Of a DNA stretch of 64,000 bases, positions 1,406 to 37,190 are shown one piece after another. The translations under genes were made by a program, and so were the position numbers. Source of the DNA: Eledone cirrhosa (Eukaryota); assembly GCA_964016885.1 (NCBI GenBank), contig OZ024742.1, positions 132,432,001 to 132,496,000 of the forward strand. The letters are read 5' to 3'. The notes under the pieces are model-generated. The model ran no database searches. It was not told the DNA's origin and saw only the letters and a list, made by a program, of their open reading frames with translations. The stretch's first letter is position 1. The number at the start of each line of letters is the position of its first letter.

Positions 1406-1713
1406 ATATAAATATATATATATAAAAACAAATAACGAAACGAAATTAAATTTCGTTTCGCTTCTAACTCACTTTTGTATGACTGACGCTTAAACAATTA
1501 AGTTAAAGTGTACATCTACATATGTATACGGAAGTATTAGTATGCATATAAATACACACATGTATACATATGTACATGTACTCAGCTTTTCACTAGACAC
1601 TTTACAGTGAGTGTCAGCTAGTCTGTATGTAACCACACAGGCGGACCGGGTTTTAGAGTCATACGAGTTTTCAAGGAAACACATTTCCTCTATTCCCCAG
1701 AGGGCCAGACAGG

Positions 1714-1758
1714 AATATTGGACTAGTTTCGATGTTATTACATCTCATCAGCAATATT
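1714..1758 (-). ncRNA. Minimal type I hammerhead ribozyme, canonical core
   Basis: AATATTG-CTGATGA-GATGT-AATA-ACATC-GAAA-CTAG-TC-CAATATT. Perfect stems I and II, palindromic ACTAGT stem III, GUC cleavage triplet. Confidence 0.92.
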
Positions 1759-2182
1759 TACCCATCTTCCGGCTTCTCTGGAGAATTGTAAAAGCACATA
1801 TCGTTATATGCTTTTTCTATGAAAATTAGTAGTGGGTAGACTAATTTGCATAGAACGTGAGTCATTGTACGCACCGGTTCAGCGGAAACGAAAAAAACAA
1901 ATAACGAAACGAAATTAAATTTCGTTTCGCTTCTAACTCACTTTTGTATGACTGACGCTTAAACAATTAAGTTAAAGTGTACATCTACATATGTATACGG
2001 AAGTATTAGTATGCATATAAATACACACATGTATACATATGTACATGTACTCAGCTTTTCACTAGACACTTTACAGTGAGTGTCAGCTAGTCTGTATGTA
2101 ACCACACAGGCGGACCGGGTTTTAGAGTCATACGAGTTTTCAAGGAAACACATTTCCTCTATTCTCCAGAGGGCCAGACAGG

Positions 2183-2227
2183 AATATTGGACTAGTTTCG
2201 ATGTTATTACATCTCATCAGCAATATT
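2183..2227 (-). ncRNA. Minimal type I hammerhead ribozyme, second tandem copy
   Basis: Identical to 1714-1758, 469 bp away. Confidence 0.92.
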
Positions 2228-2385
2228 TACCCATCTTCCGGCTTCTCTGGAGAATTGTAAAAGCACATATCGTTATTAGCGTCAGTCATACAAAAGTGAG
2301 TTAGAAGCGAAACGAATTTTAATTTCGTTTCGTTATTTGTTTTTATCGTTTCCGCTGAACCGGTGCGTACAATGACTCACGTTCT

Positions 2386-2432
2386 ATGCAAATTAGTCTA
2401 CCCACTACTAATTTTCATAGAAAAAGCATATA
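2386..2432 (+). promoter_or_regulatory. Putative promoter module of family B (octamer + TAATTTTCATA + CATATA)
   Basis: ATGCAAAT at 2386-2393, TAATTTTCATA at about 2409-2419, CATATA at 2427-2432. The same module is on the - strand with its octamer at 1844-1851. Confidence 0.5.
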
Positions 2433-2589
2433 ACGATATGCATAGTGCATAGCCTTCAGCTTGCGATGTCGTCTTACCTACCAGGGAATCAGGTATAAAT
2501 AAGTGGGAAATCTATTTTAAGTATGTATGTCTGAGGGGGACATATCCTGCATGGCAGTGTGTATGGTATGTATGAATATATATATATAT

Positions 2590-8340: not shown

Positions 8341-8760
8341 TTTATTAAAATAACAGATTAAAGTTTAAGCAAAGAACCACCTAATAGAATATTAGTCTAA
8401 GACTTCATGTATACCATAATTGTGGTTGTGTCTTTGCGTGTAATTGTTTTCACCGCTACAAATAATAACGTATTATCTTCGTTTTTTTTTTCGTTCTTTG
8501 CCAGGGAACGTTTCCACGAACCAAAGTATCGTCTTCCTGTCTTCCTCCGGTTGCAACGTTTTTTTAAATATTTACTTCTGCGTTCACAGATTGACTATTT
8601 TAGTTTCAGAAGATCCCGTTAAGGGTGAAAGCAGCGATTCTTTGCTTAAACTTTAATCTGTTATTTTAATAAATATTTGGTCTATGGTTCTTATATATTT
8701 GATATATATCTATCCTTATCGAGCCCTCTATGTATTTTAGTCTTCACATTTATTATATTA
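8341..8760 (+). mobile_element. Family D repeat with short inverted 3' end at its 5' side; variant HHR-like core at about 8600-8645
   Basis: 8341-8376 is the reverse complement of 8638-8673. The body matches 60335-60625. Contains CAGAAGA-TCCC-GTTAA-GGGT-GAAA. Confidence 0.75.
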
Positions 8761-9005: not shown

Positions 9006-9394
9006 AAGAATGAGAAATATAATAGATTGAGAGGACAGGCGGGATGGAATTGGAAAAAATATCTTTAGACAAAAATAACATATCTTGCAAAACTATATAT
9101 ATATATATATATATATAAATGGAATAGAATGAAACGAAATTTCATTTCTCACTCTTAGAACGGCACTTACTTAAATGTAAGTATGTATGTATACATACAT
9201 ACATATATGTATACAGACGTACAGTAGCATGTATATATATACATACAGGCACACATATATATATGCACGTATCAGTTTACCGAACATTTATTATAATGCT
9301 CGGTTTGTTCGTTTGTAAACAAACAAACGGCCTGAATTACGCCGTACAGTGTTTAGGCAACCACGTCACCTTTTTGTTCAACACTGACACAGGA

Positions 9395-9437
9395 ACGATG
9401 TACTCGTTTCAAGCTTATTAGCTATCGTCAGCACCGT
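9395..9437 (-). ncRNA. Minimal hammerhead ribozyme (family C)
   Basis: ACGGTG-CTGACGA-TAGCT-AATA-AGCTT-GAAA-CGAG-TA-CATCGT. Confidence 0.8.
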
Positions 9438-9751
9438 ATACCTTTCTGCCAGATGGTTGAACGTCCGAAAGTATATACTTTCCTTATGAAAATTAACGGC
9501 TGAGCAGCCTAATTTGCATATCTAGTGAGTTCAGTCGGCCAGGCGCACCGAAAACGATAAATGGAATAGAATGAAACGAAATCTCATTTCTCACTCTTAG
9601 TACGGCACTAACTTAAATGTAAGTATGTATGTATATGTACACACATATATGTATACAGACGTACAGTAGCATGTATATATATACATACAGGCACACATAT
9701 ATATATGCACTTATCAGTTTACCGACGTTCAACCATGTGGCAGAAATGTAT

Positions 9752-9794
9752 ACGGTGCTGACGATAGCTAATAAGCTTGAAACTAGTACATCGT
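9752..9794 (+). ncRNA. Minimal hammerhead ribozyme (family C)
   Basis: ACGGTG-CTGACGA-TAGCT-AATA-AGCTT-GAAA-CTAG-TA-CATCGT. Confidence 0.85.
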
Positions 9795-10111
9795 TCCTGT
9801 GTCAGTGTTGAACAAAAAGGTGACGTGGTTGCCTAAACACTGTACGGCGTAATTCAGGCTGTTTTTTTTGTTTACAAACGAACAAACCGAGCATTATAAT
9901 AAATGTTCGGTAAACTGATACGTGCATATATATATGTGTGCTCGTATGTATATATATACATGCTACTGTACGTCTGTATACATATATGTATGTACGTATA
10001 CATACATACTTATTTTAAGTAAGTGCCGTACTAAGAGTGAGAAAGGAAATTTCGTTTCTTTCTATTCCATTTATCGTTTTCGGTGCACCTGGCCGACTGA
10101 ACTCACTCGAT

Positions 10112-10162
10112 ATGCAAATTAGGCAGCTCAGCCGTTAATTTTCATAAGGCAAGTATATACTT
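10112..10162 (+). promoter_or_regulatory. Putative promoter module of family C (octamer + TCAGCCGTTAATTTTCATA + palindromic AAGTATATACTT)
   Basis: ATGCAAAT at 10112-10119 and TATATA at 10154-10159. Also on the - strand at 9512-9519 and 29322-29329. Confidence 0.5.
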
Positions 10163-10193
10163 TCGGACGTTCAACCATCTGGCAGAAAGGAAT

Positions 10194-10236
10194 ACGGTGC
10201 TGACGATAGCTAATAAGCTTGAAACTAGTACATCGT
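10194..10236 (+). ncRNA. Minimal hammerhead ribozyme (family C)
   Basis: Same as 9752-9794, 442 bp downstream. Embedded in the GTTCAAC...GTTGAAC extended stem. Confidence 0.85.
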
Positions 10237-10452
10237 TCCTGTGTCAGTGTTGAACAAAAAGGTGACGTGGTTGCCTAAACACTGTATGGCGTAATTCAGG
10301 CTGGTTTTTTTTGTTTACAAACGAACAAACCGAGCATTATAATAAATGTTCGGTAAACTGATACGTGCATATATATATGTGTGCTCGTATGTATATATAT
10401 ACATGCTACTGTACGTCTGTATACATATATGTATGTACGTATACATACATAC

Positions 10453-10504
<52 letters not shown>

Positions 10505-11783: not shown

Positions 11784-12308
11784 TTAATTAGGTTTATAAT
11801 ATTTAAAGGTTTTTCTCAGTTTATGATTACACGATATTATTAATTCCTGTCGCTTATTTAATAGGATATCCTTAGATTTCATTATTTCAAAAAGTTCTGG
11901 GGAACATAATCTACATTCATATCTACTATTTTGATAAGGAATGGCCCTTTTGAGCACACTCCAGGCCAGGTCATAATCTATATTCCTCTTTCTATAACTA
12001 TTAACTATTTCAGCTAGAGATGTTGTATTAGCTAGTGCGGCATTTTTAAAACTATGTTTGTGGGTATTAAATCTTATCTTAAATTTGTTAGAGGTATCTC
12101 CTATATATGAATAAATTGAGTCCTTAGTGTTAACTTTACATTTATATACTATGTTATTAACAAGGCAATTTCCTTTTAATGGACAGTTAGCCTTGTTTCT
12201 ACAGTTACAACTTTTCGTGAATCCTGTATCTGAGGAGATATTATGGTTAGTTTGATGTACTGGTGGTATACACATGGTTTTTTTTACATTTATATGCATT
12301 ATAGGCAC
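11784..12308 (-). pseudogene. PLE1 GIY-YIG endonuclease domain
   Basis: CNCRNKANCPLKGNCL, IVYKCKV...YIGDTSNKFKIRFNTHKHSF, CRLC, LNKRQELIISCNH. Confidence 0.9.
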
Positions 12309-12319
12309 TTATATTTTGT

Positions 12320-13305
12320 TTTATGTTTTTGGTTGTTGAGTAGGAGAATTTAACCGTTGATCTATTTAAAATTTGATGGTATTTGTGGTTTGGCGGGAAG
12401 TTTTTCTCTAGGATATTAAAGAATTTGTTAGGTATATTATCTTTAATTTGTAAATTAAATGGAGCATTATACCAAGTAACTCATCTATTACGGTTTCGAT
12501 GTTGTTTATTGTTTTTATAGGATGCATCCGGATATTTATTAGAGAATTATTGTTAATGACCTCACCACACACATTTTTAGTTAGATTTATTGATTTAGAT
12601 GTTTTAGCTTGTTTATTAGGAGTTTTATTATTAACATTTATTAGAGTTGTAGGATGAGTAGTTTTTTGAGAGTTACTATACTGTATATTAGAAGAGTTAG
12701 AGAAATTTGGTTTTATGTTGGTGTTTTGGGGTATAGTGTGAGTGGCATTTAGGTGTGTATGTTGCATTTGGTGTTTGTTGGTAATATTAGGTTGTATGTT
12801 TGTAGTGTTATTGGTAGAAGGTATATATACTAATCTATTTTTCTGGCCACTTCTAGCTAGAGCTTCATTATAAAAGGTCGCATTTTTATCAAATACATCT
12901 TGGTTAGACGAAAGTTTAGAAATTCTAAGTGATATATTATATGCAAGGTTTTTAAGGATAGAATTAGGGTGATTAGATTGTGAGTGTATGTTGTGTAAAT
13001 TTTGGTTGGGTTTATGGTAAGGTTGGTAGATACCCGTAGATAAGTCTAATGTTATTTCTAGGAAATTAAATACTTTACTTGTGTTTTCAAATGTAATATC
13101 TAGACTATAATAGTCTTTAAGGAAAGTTCTCATAAGCTTTTTATTTTTTTCTATCTCTGAGAGGCTAAGGTTATTGGAAAGAAGAAGACAGTCGTCACGA
13201 TATAAACCACCTTTAAGGTGGGGAAAGGAAGCATTTATGTTAAAAAGAAGAAAGAGGCCCACAAGATCAGTAATTTGGGCAGAATCGCTTGAGCCCATAG
13301 TAATA
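12320..13305 (-). pseudogene. PLE1 reverse transcriptase C-terminal half and linker (frameshifted)
   Basis: ORF 12408-13298 contains YRDD, YQPYHKPN and SNHPNSILK. The linker FPPNHKYHQILNRSTVKFSYS lies in another frame at about 12330-12405. Confidence 0.88.
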
Positions 13306-13437
13306 TCTTGACTCTGTTTTCCGTTTATTTTTCACCGAAAGTAGTTTTTGAATGCATCTTCTCTTTTCATGGTATCCGGATTACATTGAGTTCTTCATAC
13401 GGATCGGACACTACCGTAAACTTTTGATAGATTTATC

Positions 13438-23149: not shown

Positions 23150-23607
23150 TCACTCCTCATCCTTAACCCATCTGAAGAAGGATATTTTTAAGCGACGTGT
23201 ACAACTTATCACTGTTTCAGCTCTGCTGTTGATGAGCTCGTGGGGTGCAGTTATGATGTGGTAGAGCTCCATGAAGCAAATATCGCATTTCCTCTTGAAG
23301 TTGTACGGTGCAGCCCTGCCGACAATTTCCCAGTGCGTGGAGAAGCTGACGTTTAAGTATTTAGTGATGTGATGTAGTCCGCGAGCGAAGTGGAGTGCTT
23401 TAGTTTTCTATTTGTGAAAGATTGGAGATGTGTTCGAAACCTAATTTTGAACGGGCCGGAGGTTGCCCCTATATAATGTTTAACGCTATTGTGACTATTA
23501 ATAGTGCATCTATATATAACCCTATCAGTCAAGCAGTATCCTCTATGGGGGCAGCGTCCTCTGTCGCGGCAGTTGCAATTTCTGTCGCGGTTCCGTCTAT
23601 TTCCCAC
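23150..23607 (-). pseudogene. PLE2 GIY-YIG endonuclease (frameshift near 23355)
   Basis: VIYRCTI...HYIGATSGPFKIRFRTH, continuing in another frame as WEIVGRAAPYNFKRKCDIC...INSRAETVISC. Confidence 0.85.
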
Positions 23608-24397
23608 GGTAAGGCTATCATTGTTGCTGCCTAAGTTGCTACCTACGCTACCGCAGCTGTCGTTAGCACCATTACACCCACAGCACGCGGGGTGGTGCGA
23701 TTGTTATTCTGCACGTCATGTCCTGCATGTTCCCCAGTCATTTCGCAGTTATGCTGGTTGCGTCTGCGGATGCCGTTGCCAACACTATTGGATGCTGTCA
23801 GGGAGTTGTTAAGGCTGATATAGTTATTGTCAGGTGTAGGTGCGTCTGTGTCGAGGTGCTGTGTCTTGGTGATCTTACTGTGGTTCGTTGTTCCTATGAT
23901 GTCTGCTAGGTTAGGAGTAGTAGAGAAGGATATTTTTATATTGTTCCTATTAAGAATTTTTCTATACCTATGGTTGGGAGGGAAGTTCTTCTCTAAGGTT
24001 TCGAAGAACATCCGGGGTATGTTGGAGGCCACACTTCGAGAGTAGGGGGTGGAACCATAGGATGTTACGGTGGCGATTACGTGTCCTTGTACTTTTGCTA
24101 CGGGTGGTTCCATCTAGGTGACCGCTCTTATGTGTGTTAATGCGCAGTCGCCCGTTCGGTGCCCTTTCACTTTATGCTCGGGTGCACTCTTCCTACCTCT
24201 TCCATGTTTATGTACACGAAGATGTTGGTTGGAAGGCGTTGGTAGTAGGCCGTCGCCTTTGTTGGTTTTATAATAGGGGAATAGTTCGAGTAATATACAG
24301 TGTTCACCGTCGCCGGGGTCGTTATCTTTGGTGCGGTTATCTATTCTGTTATATCCGACTTCAACGAGGTCGCCGCGTGATCGGTTATAGGTATGGC

Positions 24398-25620
24398 TTA
24401 ATATAACGTTTGTTTTATGAGGGGGTGGTTTCTAGAGCTAGCGTTAGGGATGTAGGAAATTCCTCGCTTAAAGCCGGCGCTTAGGGCCCTATTATAGTAA
24501 TCTGCCGCTTGGTTGAAGATATCCTCATTGGCGGATAGCCTCGAGATTCTATGTGAGATACTATAGACTATGGAGTTGAGAGTCTGCTCAGGGTGGTTGG
24601 AGGCATAATTAATATAAGAGAGGCACTCTCCAGGCTTATGGTATGGCTTGTATAAACCCGTACTCAACTCGAGGGTCACGTCTCGGAAGTTGACAACCCT
24701 GTGGTTGAGGTCTATAGTTACGGATAGGCCGTATGACTTGAAGAACCTGAGTATATGTTTGTTAAGGTTCTCTATCTTACGGGGGCTATGGTTTCTAACG
24801 GTAAACAGGGCGTCGTCCCTATATACACCTCCTTGTAGGGCCGGTATTTCTTCCCTAAGCTTATGTAGGAGGTATATCCCGACCAGGTCAGTTGCTTGCG
24901 CTGAGTCACTGGACCCCATCGTGACATCGAAGTTATCAGGACGGTTGGTTCTGGTCCAGTGGGAGCCTTCGAACTGGATAATGGTTCTACGCGCCACTAG
25001 AATTATGTCTATTTCTCTTTTAGTGAGGCTAGTGTTAGATCTAGCTAAGATAAGTGCCTTATTTAAGAGTATGGTGGAGATAGAGGCGTACTAACTATCT
25101 ATATCAAACCGGATGAATTTCAGGGTGGCTTTATCCTGCAACTCGGTGAACCAATTTATGACCTGGTCGGTGTTGCCCCAGAGGCAGACCTTAGCCTTTC
25201 TATTAAGCTCCAGTAGTACTCTGTCAAGTATCACTTTACTAATCTTACCTATATCTGATGTAGAGGGGCATATTAGTCTAATAGAGGGGCTTTCATTAAA
25301 GTCATATATGTGATCCTTAAGAGAGAATTAAGGTGTCAGAGGGACGTACGGGTTAGTGTACTTTTCTATTTCTAAGCTGGTGACTATATCCTTCTCTACT
25401 CTATTTATGTCATTTAGGGTACTAGAGGGTGTCTTTTTGTAGTCTTTGTGTAGTTCCTTATAGATGAATTTTTTATACTCATTCGCGTCCATCTTGTACA
25501 GCTTTTTGGTTTTGTCGGAGGTGACGAAGAGGTGCGGGTCATTCTTGATCTTAGTTATTAATGTATCAAGGGACGTTAAGAATGGATTGCTGCATTGGTG
25601 TTTCTTTCTGAACTTAACGT
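24398..25620 (-). pseudogene. PLE2 reverse transcriptase (interrupted)
   Basis: ORF pieces 25328-25620 and 24398-24997, with SLKDHIYDF...IRLICPSTSDIGKISK and FIRFDID in between. Confidence 0.88.
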
Positions 25621-28747: not shown

Positions 28748-29899
<1,152 letters not shown>

Positions 29900-32114: not shown

Positions 32115-36380
<4,266 letters not shown>

Positions 36381-36818: not shown

Positions 36819-36901
<83 letters not shown>

Positions 36902-36941
36902 CACACAAACGCACATAAATATATATATATTCATACACACA

Positions 36942-37190
36942 TATGTACGAATCGGTTATATCGAACATAATAATATTCGATTCATTTGTAAAAAAAACAG
37001 CCCGATTAAAGTTGTGCTGTGCCGATGACAAATCGTCATCCATCTGTTCAACACTGACATTGAGGAAGAATCAATATGTTTCTCGGTCACTACCCTTCAT
37101 CAGGACTGTATACATCTCTCAACCTACTGAACGGTTGAAAATATATATTTTCTGAAGTACACATCTGGTGATTAGCCTCATTTGCATCAT
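36942..37190 (-). mobile_element. Highly diverged family C relative retaining octamer, TATA palindrome and HHR core
   Basis: Minus strand: ATGCAAAT (37180-37187), AAAATATATATTTT, CTGATGA-AGGGTAGTGACCGA-GAAAC, then tgtcagtgttgaaca. Confidence 0.7.

What the first reader, a model, noticed from the sequence alone, without database searches (positions are those of the whole stretch)
9117..10452. Self-promoted hammerhead mini-retroelements: octamer-TATA module linked to a hairpin-embedded HHR in tandem units
Seen: a 442-bp non-coding unit containing ATGCAAAT, then TATATA 42 bp later within the palindrome AAGTATATACTT, then GTTCAAC...[HHR]...GTTGAAC, then a T-run. The same order and 40-42 bp spacing recur in family B (1424-2440), which is otherwise dissimilar, and in the copies at 28748-29765 and 36942-37190. 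Known: minimal HHRs occur in PLE pLTRs and in tandem non-LTR retrozymes that yield monomeric or circular RNAs, and octamer plus TATA are parts of snRNA-type and H2B-type promoters. Inference: these are non-autonomous PLE-mobilised elements that carry their own external promoter, regenerated upstream by tandem duplication. I do not know of a description of this promoter-ribozyme architecture.
Basis: partly seen in the sequence, partly recalled or inferred. Interest (0 to 1): 0.88.

Follow-up and report, generated by a model that had tools for sequence, protein, structure and literature searches.

The report
Retrozymes with hybrid snRNA-type promoter
This is one copy of a very abundant, protein-free jumping repeat with a predicted self-cutting RNA, whose repeat unit carries DNA signals matching the host's own small-nuclear-RNA gene promoters and so likely switches itself on, a layout already reported for a newt repeat.

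Summary
The observation largely holds. 9117-10456 is two head-to-head arms of a 442-bp non-coding unit with a type I hammerhead, inserted in (TA)n. The 11-mer-to-TATA pattern has 23,366 genome matches against 610 for the reversed control; at least seven families place it 84-105 nt before a hammerhead. Family A arms end at two fixed sites 61 nt apart, with random 5' ends, often beyond one unit: the Penelope two-site 'tail' signature on a circular or multimeric template. The 'octamer' is part of an 11-mer found at -77 of host U6, U6atac and MRP genes. Sixteen bases on lies a YCAS word placed like that of host U1/U2/U5 genes, and TATA sits 4-6 bp closer than in U6. I read it as a hybrid snRNA-type promoter, Pol II somewhat likelier than Pol III; transcription is untested. 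The T-run is not conserved (104 of 110 copies lack it), and this locus has only one hammerhead after each promoter. Precedents: newt satellite 2 (snRNA promoter, Pol II) and retrozymes as non-autonomous PLEs. This scan reported the same module before on other DNA of this genome. New variant of a known kind.

The parts
9117..9725 (-). Left arm: 1.4 units of family A (unit position u183 to u350), 3' end in (TA)n
9725..10456 (+). Right arm: 1.65 units (u1 to u289), 3' end in (TA)n
10112..10122 (+). 11-mer ATGCAAATTAG, same word as at -76..-78 of host U6, U6atac, MRP genes
10128..10131 (+). YCAS word (TCAG), placed like the YCAGT at -55..-58 of host U1/U2/U5 genes
10154..10159 (+). TATA box; predicted start site 30 nt on, A at 10184 (inferred from host geometry)
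10169..10255 (+). Long hairpin closed by GTTCAAC/GTTGAAC that holds the hammerhead; its outer 5' arm lies upstream of the predicted start, so it would form only in read-through or circular RNA
10200..10230 (+). Type I hammerhead core, palindromic stem III (CTAG), predicted cut after GUA at 10230
9758..9788 (+). Second hammerhead core, no promoter upstream within the arm
9401..9519 (-). Left-arm promoter module (11-mer 9519, TATA 9477) and hammerhead (9431-9401, stem III loop CGAG)
10014..10074 (+). 61-nt 'tail' between the two fixed 3' end sites (u289 and u350)
10305..10312 (+). T8 run: copy-specific, not conserved (also 9862-9869)
1424..2440 (-). Family B (469-bp unit): 11-mer 1851, TATA-like 1808, hammerheads 2220-2190 and 1751-1721; short inverted arm 2278-2440 with 11-mer at 2386
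28748..29777 (-). Subfamily C copy (78-82% to A), two opposed arms, interrupted by another repeat at about 28840-29023
36868..37190 (-). Older family D copy (65% to A), 11-mer 37187, TATA +40, decayed hammerhead at 37103

Best explanation
These are non-coding hammerhead repeats (non-LTR retrozymes) that are likely copied by the enzyme of a Penelope-like element and likely transcribed from a promoter inside their own unit, built from host snRNA-promoter words, more probably by RNA polymerase II than III. Steps: (1) shown in sequence: 11-mer, YCAS and TATA in host-like geometry before the hammerhead; (2) inferred: transcription starts about 30 nt after TATA (A at 10184) and runs through T-runs into the next unit; (3) inferred: two hammerheads in one transcript cleave as a dimer and release a monomer that can circularise and now contains the promoter sequence; (4) shown as footprints, enzyme inferred: reverse transcription starts at two internal sites (u350 and u289), one on each side of a cut in (TA)n, runs round the circle or along the multimer and stops at random, leaving two opposed arms; (5) inferred: only arms holding a promoter followed by two hammerheads can be source copies; this locus is not one.
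For: Insertion anatomy: of 98 family A arms in 51 loci, 45 end at u346-350 and 41 at u284-298, mostly against (TA)n; 39 of 51 loci have two opposed arms and 33 of these 39 pair one end of each type (hand count); 44 of 98 arms exceed one unit, up to 1255 nt; 5' ends are uniform (KS p 0.65; 1 at the cut site, 2 at the predicted start, 1.55 expected). This matches the two adjacent internal initiation sites and 'tail' shown in vitro for a PLE (PMC11167929 passages) and the inverted copy, tail and (TA)n bias of PLEs (PMC8557442 passages). Hammerhead stems change sequence between families while staying paired, stem III palindromic in A, B, E, H. Promoter: 11-mer at -76..-78 in 5 of 6 Pol III-class promoters examined (U6 x3, U6atac, MRP; not RNase P) and 0 of 16 Pol II-class ones; YCAG at -55..-58 in 14 of 16 Pol II-class promoters (13 U1/U2/U5, U12; not the two U3 types) and 0 of those 5. 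Elements: YCAS at -54..-57 from TATA+30 in 15 of 16 representatives, a word the pattern did not select for. Between families A, B, D, E identity is 0.90 (11-mer), 0.75 (YCAS), 0.83 (TATA) vs 0.27-0.40 in flanks. For Pol II: 11-mer-to-TATA is 40-43 vs 46-48 in U6 class; the region after the 11-mer beats shuffles on a Pol II matrix in 10 of 13 non-G representatives (p up to 0.05) and on the Pol III matrix in 0 of 13; units hold T4-T7 runs that must be read through; in insects the 3' half of the proximal element sets polymerase choice (PMC1761439 abstract and introduction). Promoter plus two hammerheads occurs in 5 of 21 loci collected without the promoter in the query.
Against: No RNA evidence was obtained. 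The strongest conserved word (the 11-mer) belongs to the host's Pol III class, and with it included the Pol III matrix scores 15 of 16 representatives above shuffles; families A, B, C score negative on the Pol II matrix (-8 to -11 vs 3.7 to 32.9 for real genes); the Pol III matrix rests on 5 promoters and separates them weakly without the 11-mer. No host gene examined has this hybrid. In vertebrates TATA selects Pol III. The 11-mer also pairs with a downstream arm in most families, so RNA structure could add to its conservation. Among young family A copies the module is not measurably more conserved than flanks (3 of 318 vs 13 of 692 upstream; too few changes). Family A's stem II opens with U-U instead of G-C. 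The partner PLE was not identified, and in the in-vitro PLE study hammerhead cleavage was dispensable, so circles are not required: uncut multimers explain the arms too.
Confidence: 0.6

Rival explanations
1. Same element, but the module is a compressed U6-type (type 3) Pol III promoter, with leaky termination at T4-T7 giving the multimers.
For: 11-mer is found only in Pol III-class host promoters; clear TATA; family G keeps U6 geometry (11-mer -77, G at +1); family A's usual unit has few T4 runs and one lies just after the u350 end; schistosome hammerhead repeats use Pol III.
Against: Spacing 4-6 bp shorter than in 5 of 5 host promoters with the 11-mer; YCAS in Pol II position; B has T5-T7 inside arms that are copied through; host Pol II snRNA genes also have TATA, so TATA does not decide.
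Confidence: 0.25
2. The module is kept as an RNA hairpin or protein-binding site of the circle (or a POU-factor site); transcription comes from neighbouring host or PLE promoters.
For: 11-mer pairs with a downstream arm, with TTAG/CTAA in B and TGAG/CTCA in E; predicted circles are highly paired (z -7.7 and -10.4 on 30 shuffles, inflated by TA-rich palindromes); 17 of 19 hammerheads in the 800-kb sample have no such module, so it is not needed by hammerhead repeats in general.
Against: The 11-mer strand stays fixed while its partner varies, whereas true RNA stems of the hammerhead change on both sides; three words keep host promoter spacing; host U6-class promoters have the word with little or no hairpin (-0.8 to -2.9 kcal/mol).
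Confidence: 0.12
3. The units are ordinary pLTRs of a coding PLE.
For: Same insertion anatomy and hammerhead type as PLEs; coding PLE fragments are common in the window; vertebrate retrozymes resemble pLTRs.
Against: Arms that pass upstream of the promoter continue as unit sequence, not coding sequence; of 41 PLE C-termini in held DNA (38 with at least 400 nt downstream; three protein queries only) 2 have the 11-mer within 900 nt, at 755 beyond a TA tract and at 819 as a decayed family-F-like copy.
Confidence: 0.03

Closest known systems
Newt satellite 2 (Epstein and Gall 1987; Coats, Zhang and Epstein 1994; Cremisi et al. 1992). Originals not held; seen only as cited in PMC2220036 and PMC6765202
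   Same: Tandem non-coding unit with a type I hammerhead and an internal snRNA-type promoter, reported as Pol II. That its promoter includes an octamer-like word is recalled, not seen in any call.
   Different: Here several diverged invertebrate families, dispersed as inverted arm pairs in (TA)n; promoter words matched to this host's own genes and mixed from its Pol III and Pol II classes; TATA present; activity untested. Sequence homology to satellite 2 not tested.
Metazoan non-LTR retrozymes (Cervera and de la Pena 2020, PMC7229834, passages; Li, Clavereau and Pollet 2026, bioRxiv 10.64898/2026.07.22.740005, parts 1-3 of 5)
   Same: Small non-coding tandem units with type I hammerheads, predicted well-paired circles, proposed non-autonomous partners of PLEs.
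   Different: In what I read neither paper analyses promoters, and the PLE link rests on co-occurrence and pLTR likeness; here copy ends show the PLE two-site signature directly. Circular RNA is shown there, not here.
Penelope-like elements: pLTR, tail and inverted copies (PMC8557442, PMC11167929, PMC4209133, passages)
   Same: 5' truncation, inverted copy, tail at one end, AT-rich targets, palindromic stem III hammerhead, promoter in the upstream copy driving the next.
   Different: No ORF; tail 61 nt rather than 30-40; sampled coding PLE ends in this genome lack the module.
Schistosome Sm-alpha hammerhead SINE-like repeats (as described in PMC6765202; original not held)
   Same: Promoter followed by hammerhead; single copies are dead ends and tandem copies are needed for propagation.
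   Different: Described as a Pol III promoter of SINE type; here an upstream snRNA-type module.

Membership tests
Non-LTR retrozyme | Type I hammerhead in each unit of a short tandem repeat | tested here: met
   Cores 442 nt apart in A, 469 in B; arrays of 6 units in L162
Non-LTR retrozyme | No protein-coding frame, no LTR/PBS structure | tested here: met
   No ORF of 130 aa or more over the locus; arms are unit sequence only
Non-LTR retrozyme | Canonical hammerhead with loop 1-loop 2 contacts and G10.1-C11.1 | tested here: inconclusive
   Extended stem I with internal loops; G-C opens stem II in B, U-U in A; below Rfam cut-offs
Non-LTR retrozyme | Self-cleavage and circular monomer RNA | not testable with these tools
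   No RNA holder listed; arm statistics need a circle or a multimer
PLE-mobilised non-autonomous element | 5' truncation with adjacent inverted copy | tested here: met
   39 of 51 loci have two opposed arms; uniform 5' ends
PLE-mobilised non-autonomous element | Two internal initiation sites / tail at one end | tested here: met
   86 of 98 3' ends at two sites 61 nt apart; 33 of 39 two-arm loci pair one of each
PLE-mobilised non-autonomous element | AT-rich or microsatellite target | tested here: met
   3' flanks are mostly (TA)n
PLE-mobilised non-autonomous element | Identified autonomous partner sharing the ends | tested here: inconclusive
   Coding PLEs present; none of 41 sampled 3' ends carries the module as its own
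Autonomous PLE (pLTR) | RT plus GIY-YIG ORF joined to the repeat | tested here: not met
U6-type (type 3) Pol III promoter | Host U6-class proximal word | tested here: met
   TATGCAAATKAG shared with U6, U6atac, MRP
U6-type (type 3) Pol III promoter | Host spacing 46-48 bp to TATA and G at +1 | tested here: not met
   40-43 bp and mostly A at or next to TATA+30 in A-F and H; met only by family G
U6-type (type 3) Pol III promoter | Conserved oligo-T terminator after the ribozyme | tested here: not met
   104 of 110 copies have at most T3 there
Pol II snRNA-type promoter (newt satellite 2 kind) | Host U1/U2/U5 core word about 56 nt before the start, 24-27 before TATA | tested here: met
   YCAS in 15 of 16 representatives; host has YCAGT, elements lack the final T in most families
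Pol II snRNA-type promoter (newt satellite 2 kind) | Overall likeness to host Pol II promoters | tested here: inconclusive
   Above shuffles in 10 of 13, but A, B, C score negative; upstream TACYTCCCTT word absent from A and B
Pol II snRNA-type promoter (newt satellite 2 kind) | Transcription shown, alpha-amanitin sensitive | not testable with these tools
   needs RNA data or bench work

The most novel reading that the evidence does not exclude
A whole radiation of retrozymes has built a chimeric promoter that no host gene has, joining the host's Pol III-class 11-mer to its Pol II-class core and spacing so as to recruit SNAPc strongly yet read through T-runs, while a sister family (G) keeps U6 geometry: a natural polymerase switch by a 4-6 bp spacing change, carried inside a viroid-like circle that the PLE enzyme copies from two fixed internal sites.
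Probability: 0.3. Interest if true: 0.7.

Novelty: new variant of a known kind. Interest (0 to 1): 0.45.

Why it matters
How animal retrozymes are transcribed is largely open; the papers read here give one Pol II case (newt) and one Pol III case (schistosome). Tens of thousands of copies in several families, with host genes as controls, give exact, testable predictions: start site, polymerase, which loci are sources. The paired u350/u289 ends are direct genomic evidence that the PLE two-site priming acts on a retrozyme, one site per DNA end. As a by-product the host's snRNA promoter grammar (11-mer for U6 class, YCAGT for U1/U2/U5, TATA in both) would help build expression tools for this animal group. 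The architecture itself is not new in kind.

Tried and rejected
Expression: no RNA holder listed; two runs of unknown kind gave contigs only and say nothing on transcription. Rfam scan was swamped by TA-repeat miRNA hits. The shared arm start at 'ACGTTCAA' in window copies A and C looked like an RNA 5' end but is chance: 5' ends are uniform over 98 arms. T-run as Pol III terminator rejected. Twin priming on a single RNA as for L1 rejected as the general rule because outer ends, not inner ones, are fixed. H2B-type octamer-TATA promoter was not tested against host histone genes. Within-family conservation had no power. Pfam recognised only 1 of 5 PLE fragments (RVT_1), so PLE ends were collected by tblastn with three fragments. 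Rows dropped in the promoter comparison: of 20 U6 loci, 10 array copies were represented by one, 6 have another repeat inserted before TATA and 2 lack the promoter; 4 of 5 U6atac loci were not used; near-identical U1/U2/U5/U3 array copies were collapsed (13 of 39 U1/U2/U5 loci used); 9 of 30 loci were self or duplicates. Families F and H were found by the pattern and so were left out of the between-family conservation figures. Literature searches for a prior description in invertebrates found none; the 1992-1998 newt and schistosome papers are not held and the supplements of the 2026 preprint could not be seen, and either may bear on novelty.

Full report
Observation. The stretch 9117-10456 lies between two (TA)n tracts and is made of one 442-bp unit read in two directions: a left arm of 1.4 units on the minus strand and a right arm of 1.65 units on the plus strand, joined at 9725. 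The hairpin is more stable than 200 of 200 shuffles in A, B and E, not in the decayed D copy. B, C and D show the same order with TATA at +43, +42 and +40. The T-run is not part of the design: 104 of 110 A/C copies have at most T3 there. B is a distant relative rather than unrelated (66% over 259 nt).

Abundance. The genome is about 3.0 Gb and AT-rich; earlier notes of this scan call the animal an octopod, which I did not test. The pattern ATGCAAATKAG N28-38 TATAWA has 23,366 matches against 610 for the reversed control. Downstream of such matches lie hammerheads of at least seven families (A/C, B, D, E, F, G, H), 84-105 nt after the 11-mer; E and G units are about 300-330 bp and no family was seen joined to an ORF in the loci read. 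In 800 kb of evenly spaced stretches, 10 of 11 exact 11-mers were such modules, while only 2 of 19 hammerheads found by a strict structural scan had the 11-mer upstream. The module marks one group of hammerhead repeats, not all.

How copies are made. I mapped 98 arms in 51 family A loci (30 collected with promoter plus hammerhead, 21 with the post-hammerhead part only; the window's locus is one of them). 45 arms end at u346-350 and 41 at u284-298, mostly directly against (TA)n; 39 loci have two opposed arms and 33 of them pair one end of each kind, only one pairs two of the same kind; 44 arms are longer than one unit. 5' ends are spread evenly over the unit, with no pile at the ribozyme cut or the predicted start. 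A PLE studied in vitro starts reverse transcription at two adjacent internal sites, which leaves the 'tail' seen at one end of genomic copies, and extends both DNA strands (PMC11167929, passages); PLE insertions carry inverted 5'-truncated copies, a 30-40 bp tail and a (TA)n bias (PMC8557442, passages). The match is close, with a 61-nt tail here. I infer PLE machinery acting on a circular or multimeric RNA that contains the promoter sequence. Stem III is palindromic in A, B, E and H, the mark of dimer-cleaving hammerheads (PMC4209133, passages). The units are not pLTRs of a sampled coding PLE: arms run on as unit sequence, and of 41 PLE C-termini only 2 have the 11-mer within 900 nt, both far out and best read as separate insertions.

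What the module is. Host U6 (three promoter types), U6atac and RNase MRP genes have TATG(C/G)(A/T)AATKAG at -76..-78 and TATA at -30; RNase P does not have the word. U1, U2 and U5 (13 promoters) and U12 lack it and have YCAG at -55..-58, with TATA-like boxes near -30 in nearly all; U3 has neither word in place. The elements have the 11-mer, then YCAS 16 nt on, then TATA 24-27 nt after YCAS, so the 11-mer falls at -70..-73 instead of -77; family G has the 11-mer at -77 and G at +1 like U6. Between A, B, D and E, none of which was picked by the pattern, identity is 0.90 over T+11-mer, 0.75 over YCAS, 0.83 over TATA and 0.27-0.40 elsewhere. The 'octamer' is best read as the 5' part of a host proximal element, not a separate enhancer.

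Which polymerase. For Pol II: core word and spacing of U1/U2/U5 type, A at or next to TATA+30 in most families, T4-T7 runs inside copied arms, a Pol II matrix that beats shuffles in 10 of 13 representatives against 0 of 13 for the Pol III matrix once the 11-mer is left out, and the insect rule that the 3' half of the element decides (PMC1761439 abstract and introduction). Against: the 11-mer is Pol III-class in this host, A, B and C score below every real Pol II gene, the matrices rest on 13 and 5 promoters, and no host gene examined has the hybrid. I put working promoter at about 0.8, and Pol II over Pol III at roughly two to one. A rival is that the 11-mer is kept as one arm of an RNA hairpin; the hairpin is predicted in most families, but its partner strand varies while the 11-mer does not, and host promoters have the word without it.

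This locus. Each of its two promoters is followed by only one hammerhead before the arm ends, so it could not yield a unit-length circle on its own; promoter plus two hammerheads occurs in 5 of 21 and 3 of 30 sampled loci. Those would be the source copies. This is inference.

Comparison with what is known. Newt satellite 2 is cited as having an snRNA promoter that drives Pol II transcription (PMC2220036, passage; PMC6765202, passage); the originals are not held. The same review describes PLE promoters in the upstream copy and schistosome promoter-plus-hammerhead repeats that need tandem copies. Non-LTR retrozymes and their circles are described in PMC7229834 (passages), and a 2026 preprint argues they are non-autonomous PLE derivatives (parts 1-3 of 5). 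An octopus repeat annotation does not mention ribozymes or promoters in its main text (passages and counts); PMC6155905 and PMC8490949 (passages) added nothing on promoters. Nine searches found no description of this module in an invertebrate. Earlier notes of this scan report the same module at other places in this genome; they are not independent evidence.

Verdict. Real feature, known kind (retrozyme with internal snRNA-type promoter, as in newts), new variant: hybrid promoter geometry checked against host genes, and clear PLE two-site footprints. Transcription, cleavage and circles are untested. Interest 0.45.

Noticed in passing
host snRNA loci L051-L077, L164-L175, L256-L262: U1, U2, U5, U3 and U12 genes of this animal nearly all have TATA-like boxes near -30, unlike vertebrate Pol II snRNA genes; class seems set by YCAGT vs the 11-mer.
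   Followed up: partly
L145, L146, L240, L248: Family G retrozyme (unit about 300 bp) keeps U6 geometry: 11-mer at -77, TATA at -30, G at +1; candidate Pol III-driven sister family.
   Followed up: partly
L263: RNase P RNA gene lacks the 11-mer and has ATCAGTG 32 bp before TATA, fitting neither host class.
   Followed up: no
window 22978 (-); L203; U1 L066, L070; U6 L031, L032; U2 L051, L054: The word TACYTCCCTT, seen about 255 nt upstream of several snRNA genes, also lies in the 3' non-coding part of a coding PLE; only 10 vs 5 in the 800-kb sample and control, so weak.
   Followed up: partly
window 11784-13331 (-), 23177-25090 (-), 34232-35914 (-): Broken coding retroelement frames of PLE type (RT-like and endonuclease-like parts); only the last gives a Pfam hit, RVT_1.
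   Followed up: partly
window 28840-29023; U6 array loci L037, L038, L040-L043: A short dispersed repeat interrupts copy C and the same kind of repeat sits directly before TATA in 6 of 16 sampled U6 array copies, replacing the proximal element.
   Followed up: no
window 8600-8760 and 1249-1420: Both A and B lie beside pieces of another (TA)n-associated repeat with a hammerhead-like CAGAAGA...GAAA word; such repeats cluster in shared TA tracts.
   Followed up: no
L176-L255; window 28148 (-), 21368 (-): Many further hammerhead repeats with long stem II, close to (TA)n and without the promoter module: 17 of 19 strict hits in 800 kb.
   Followed up: partly
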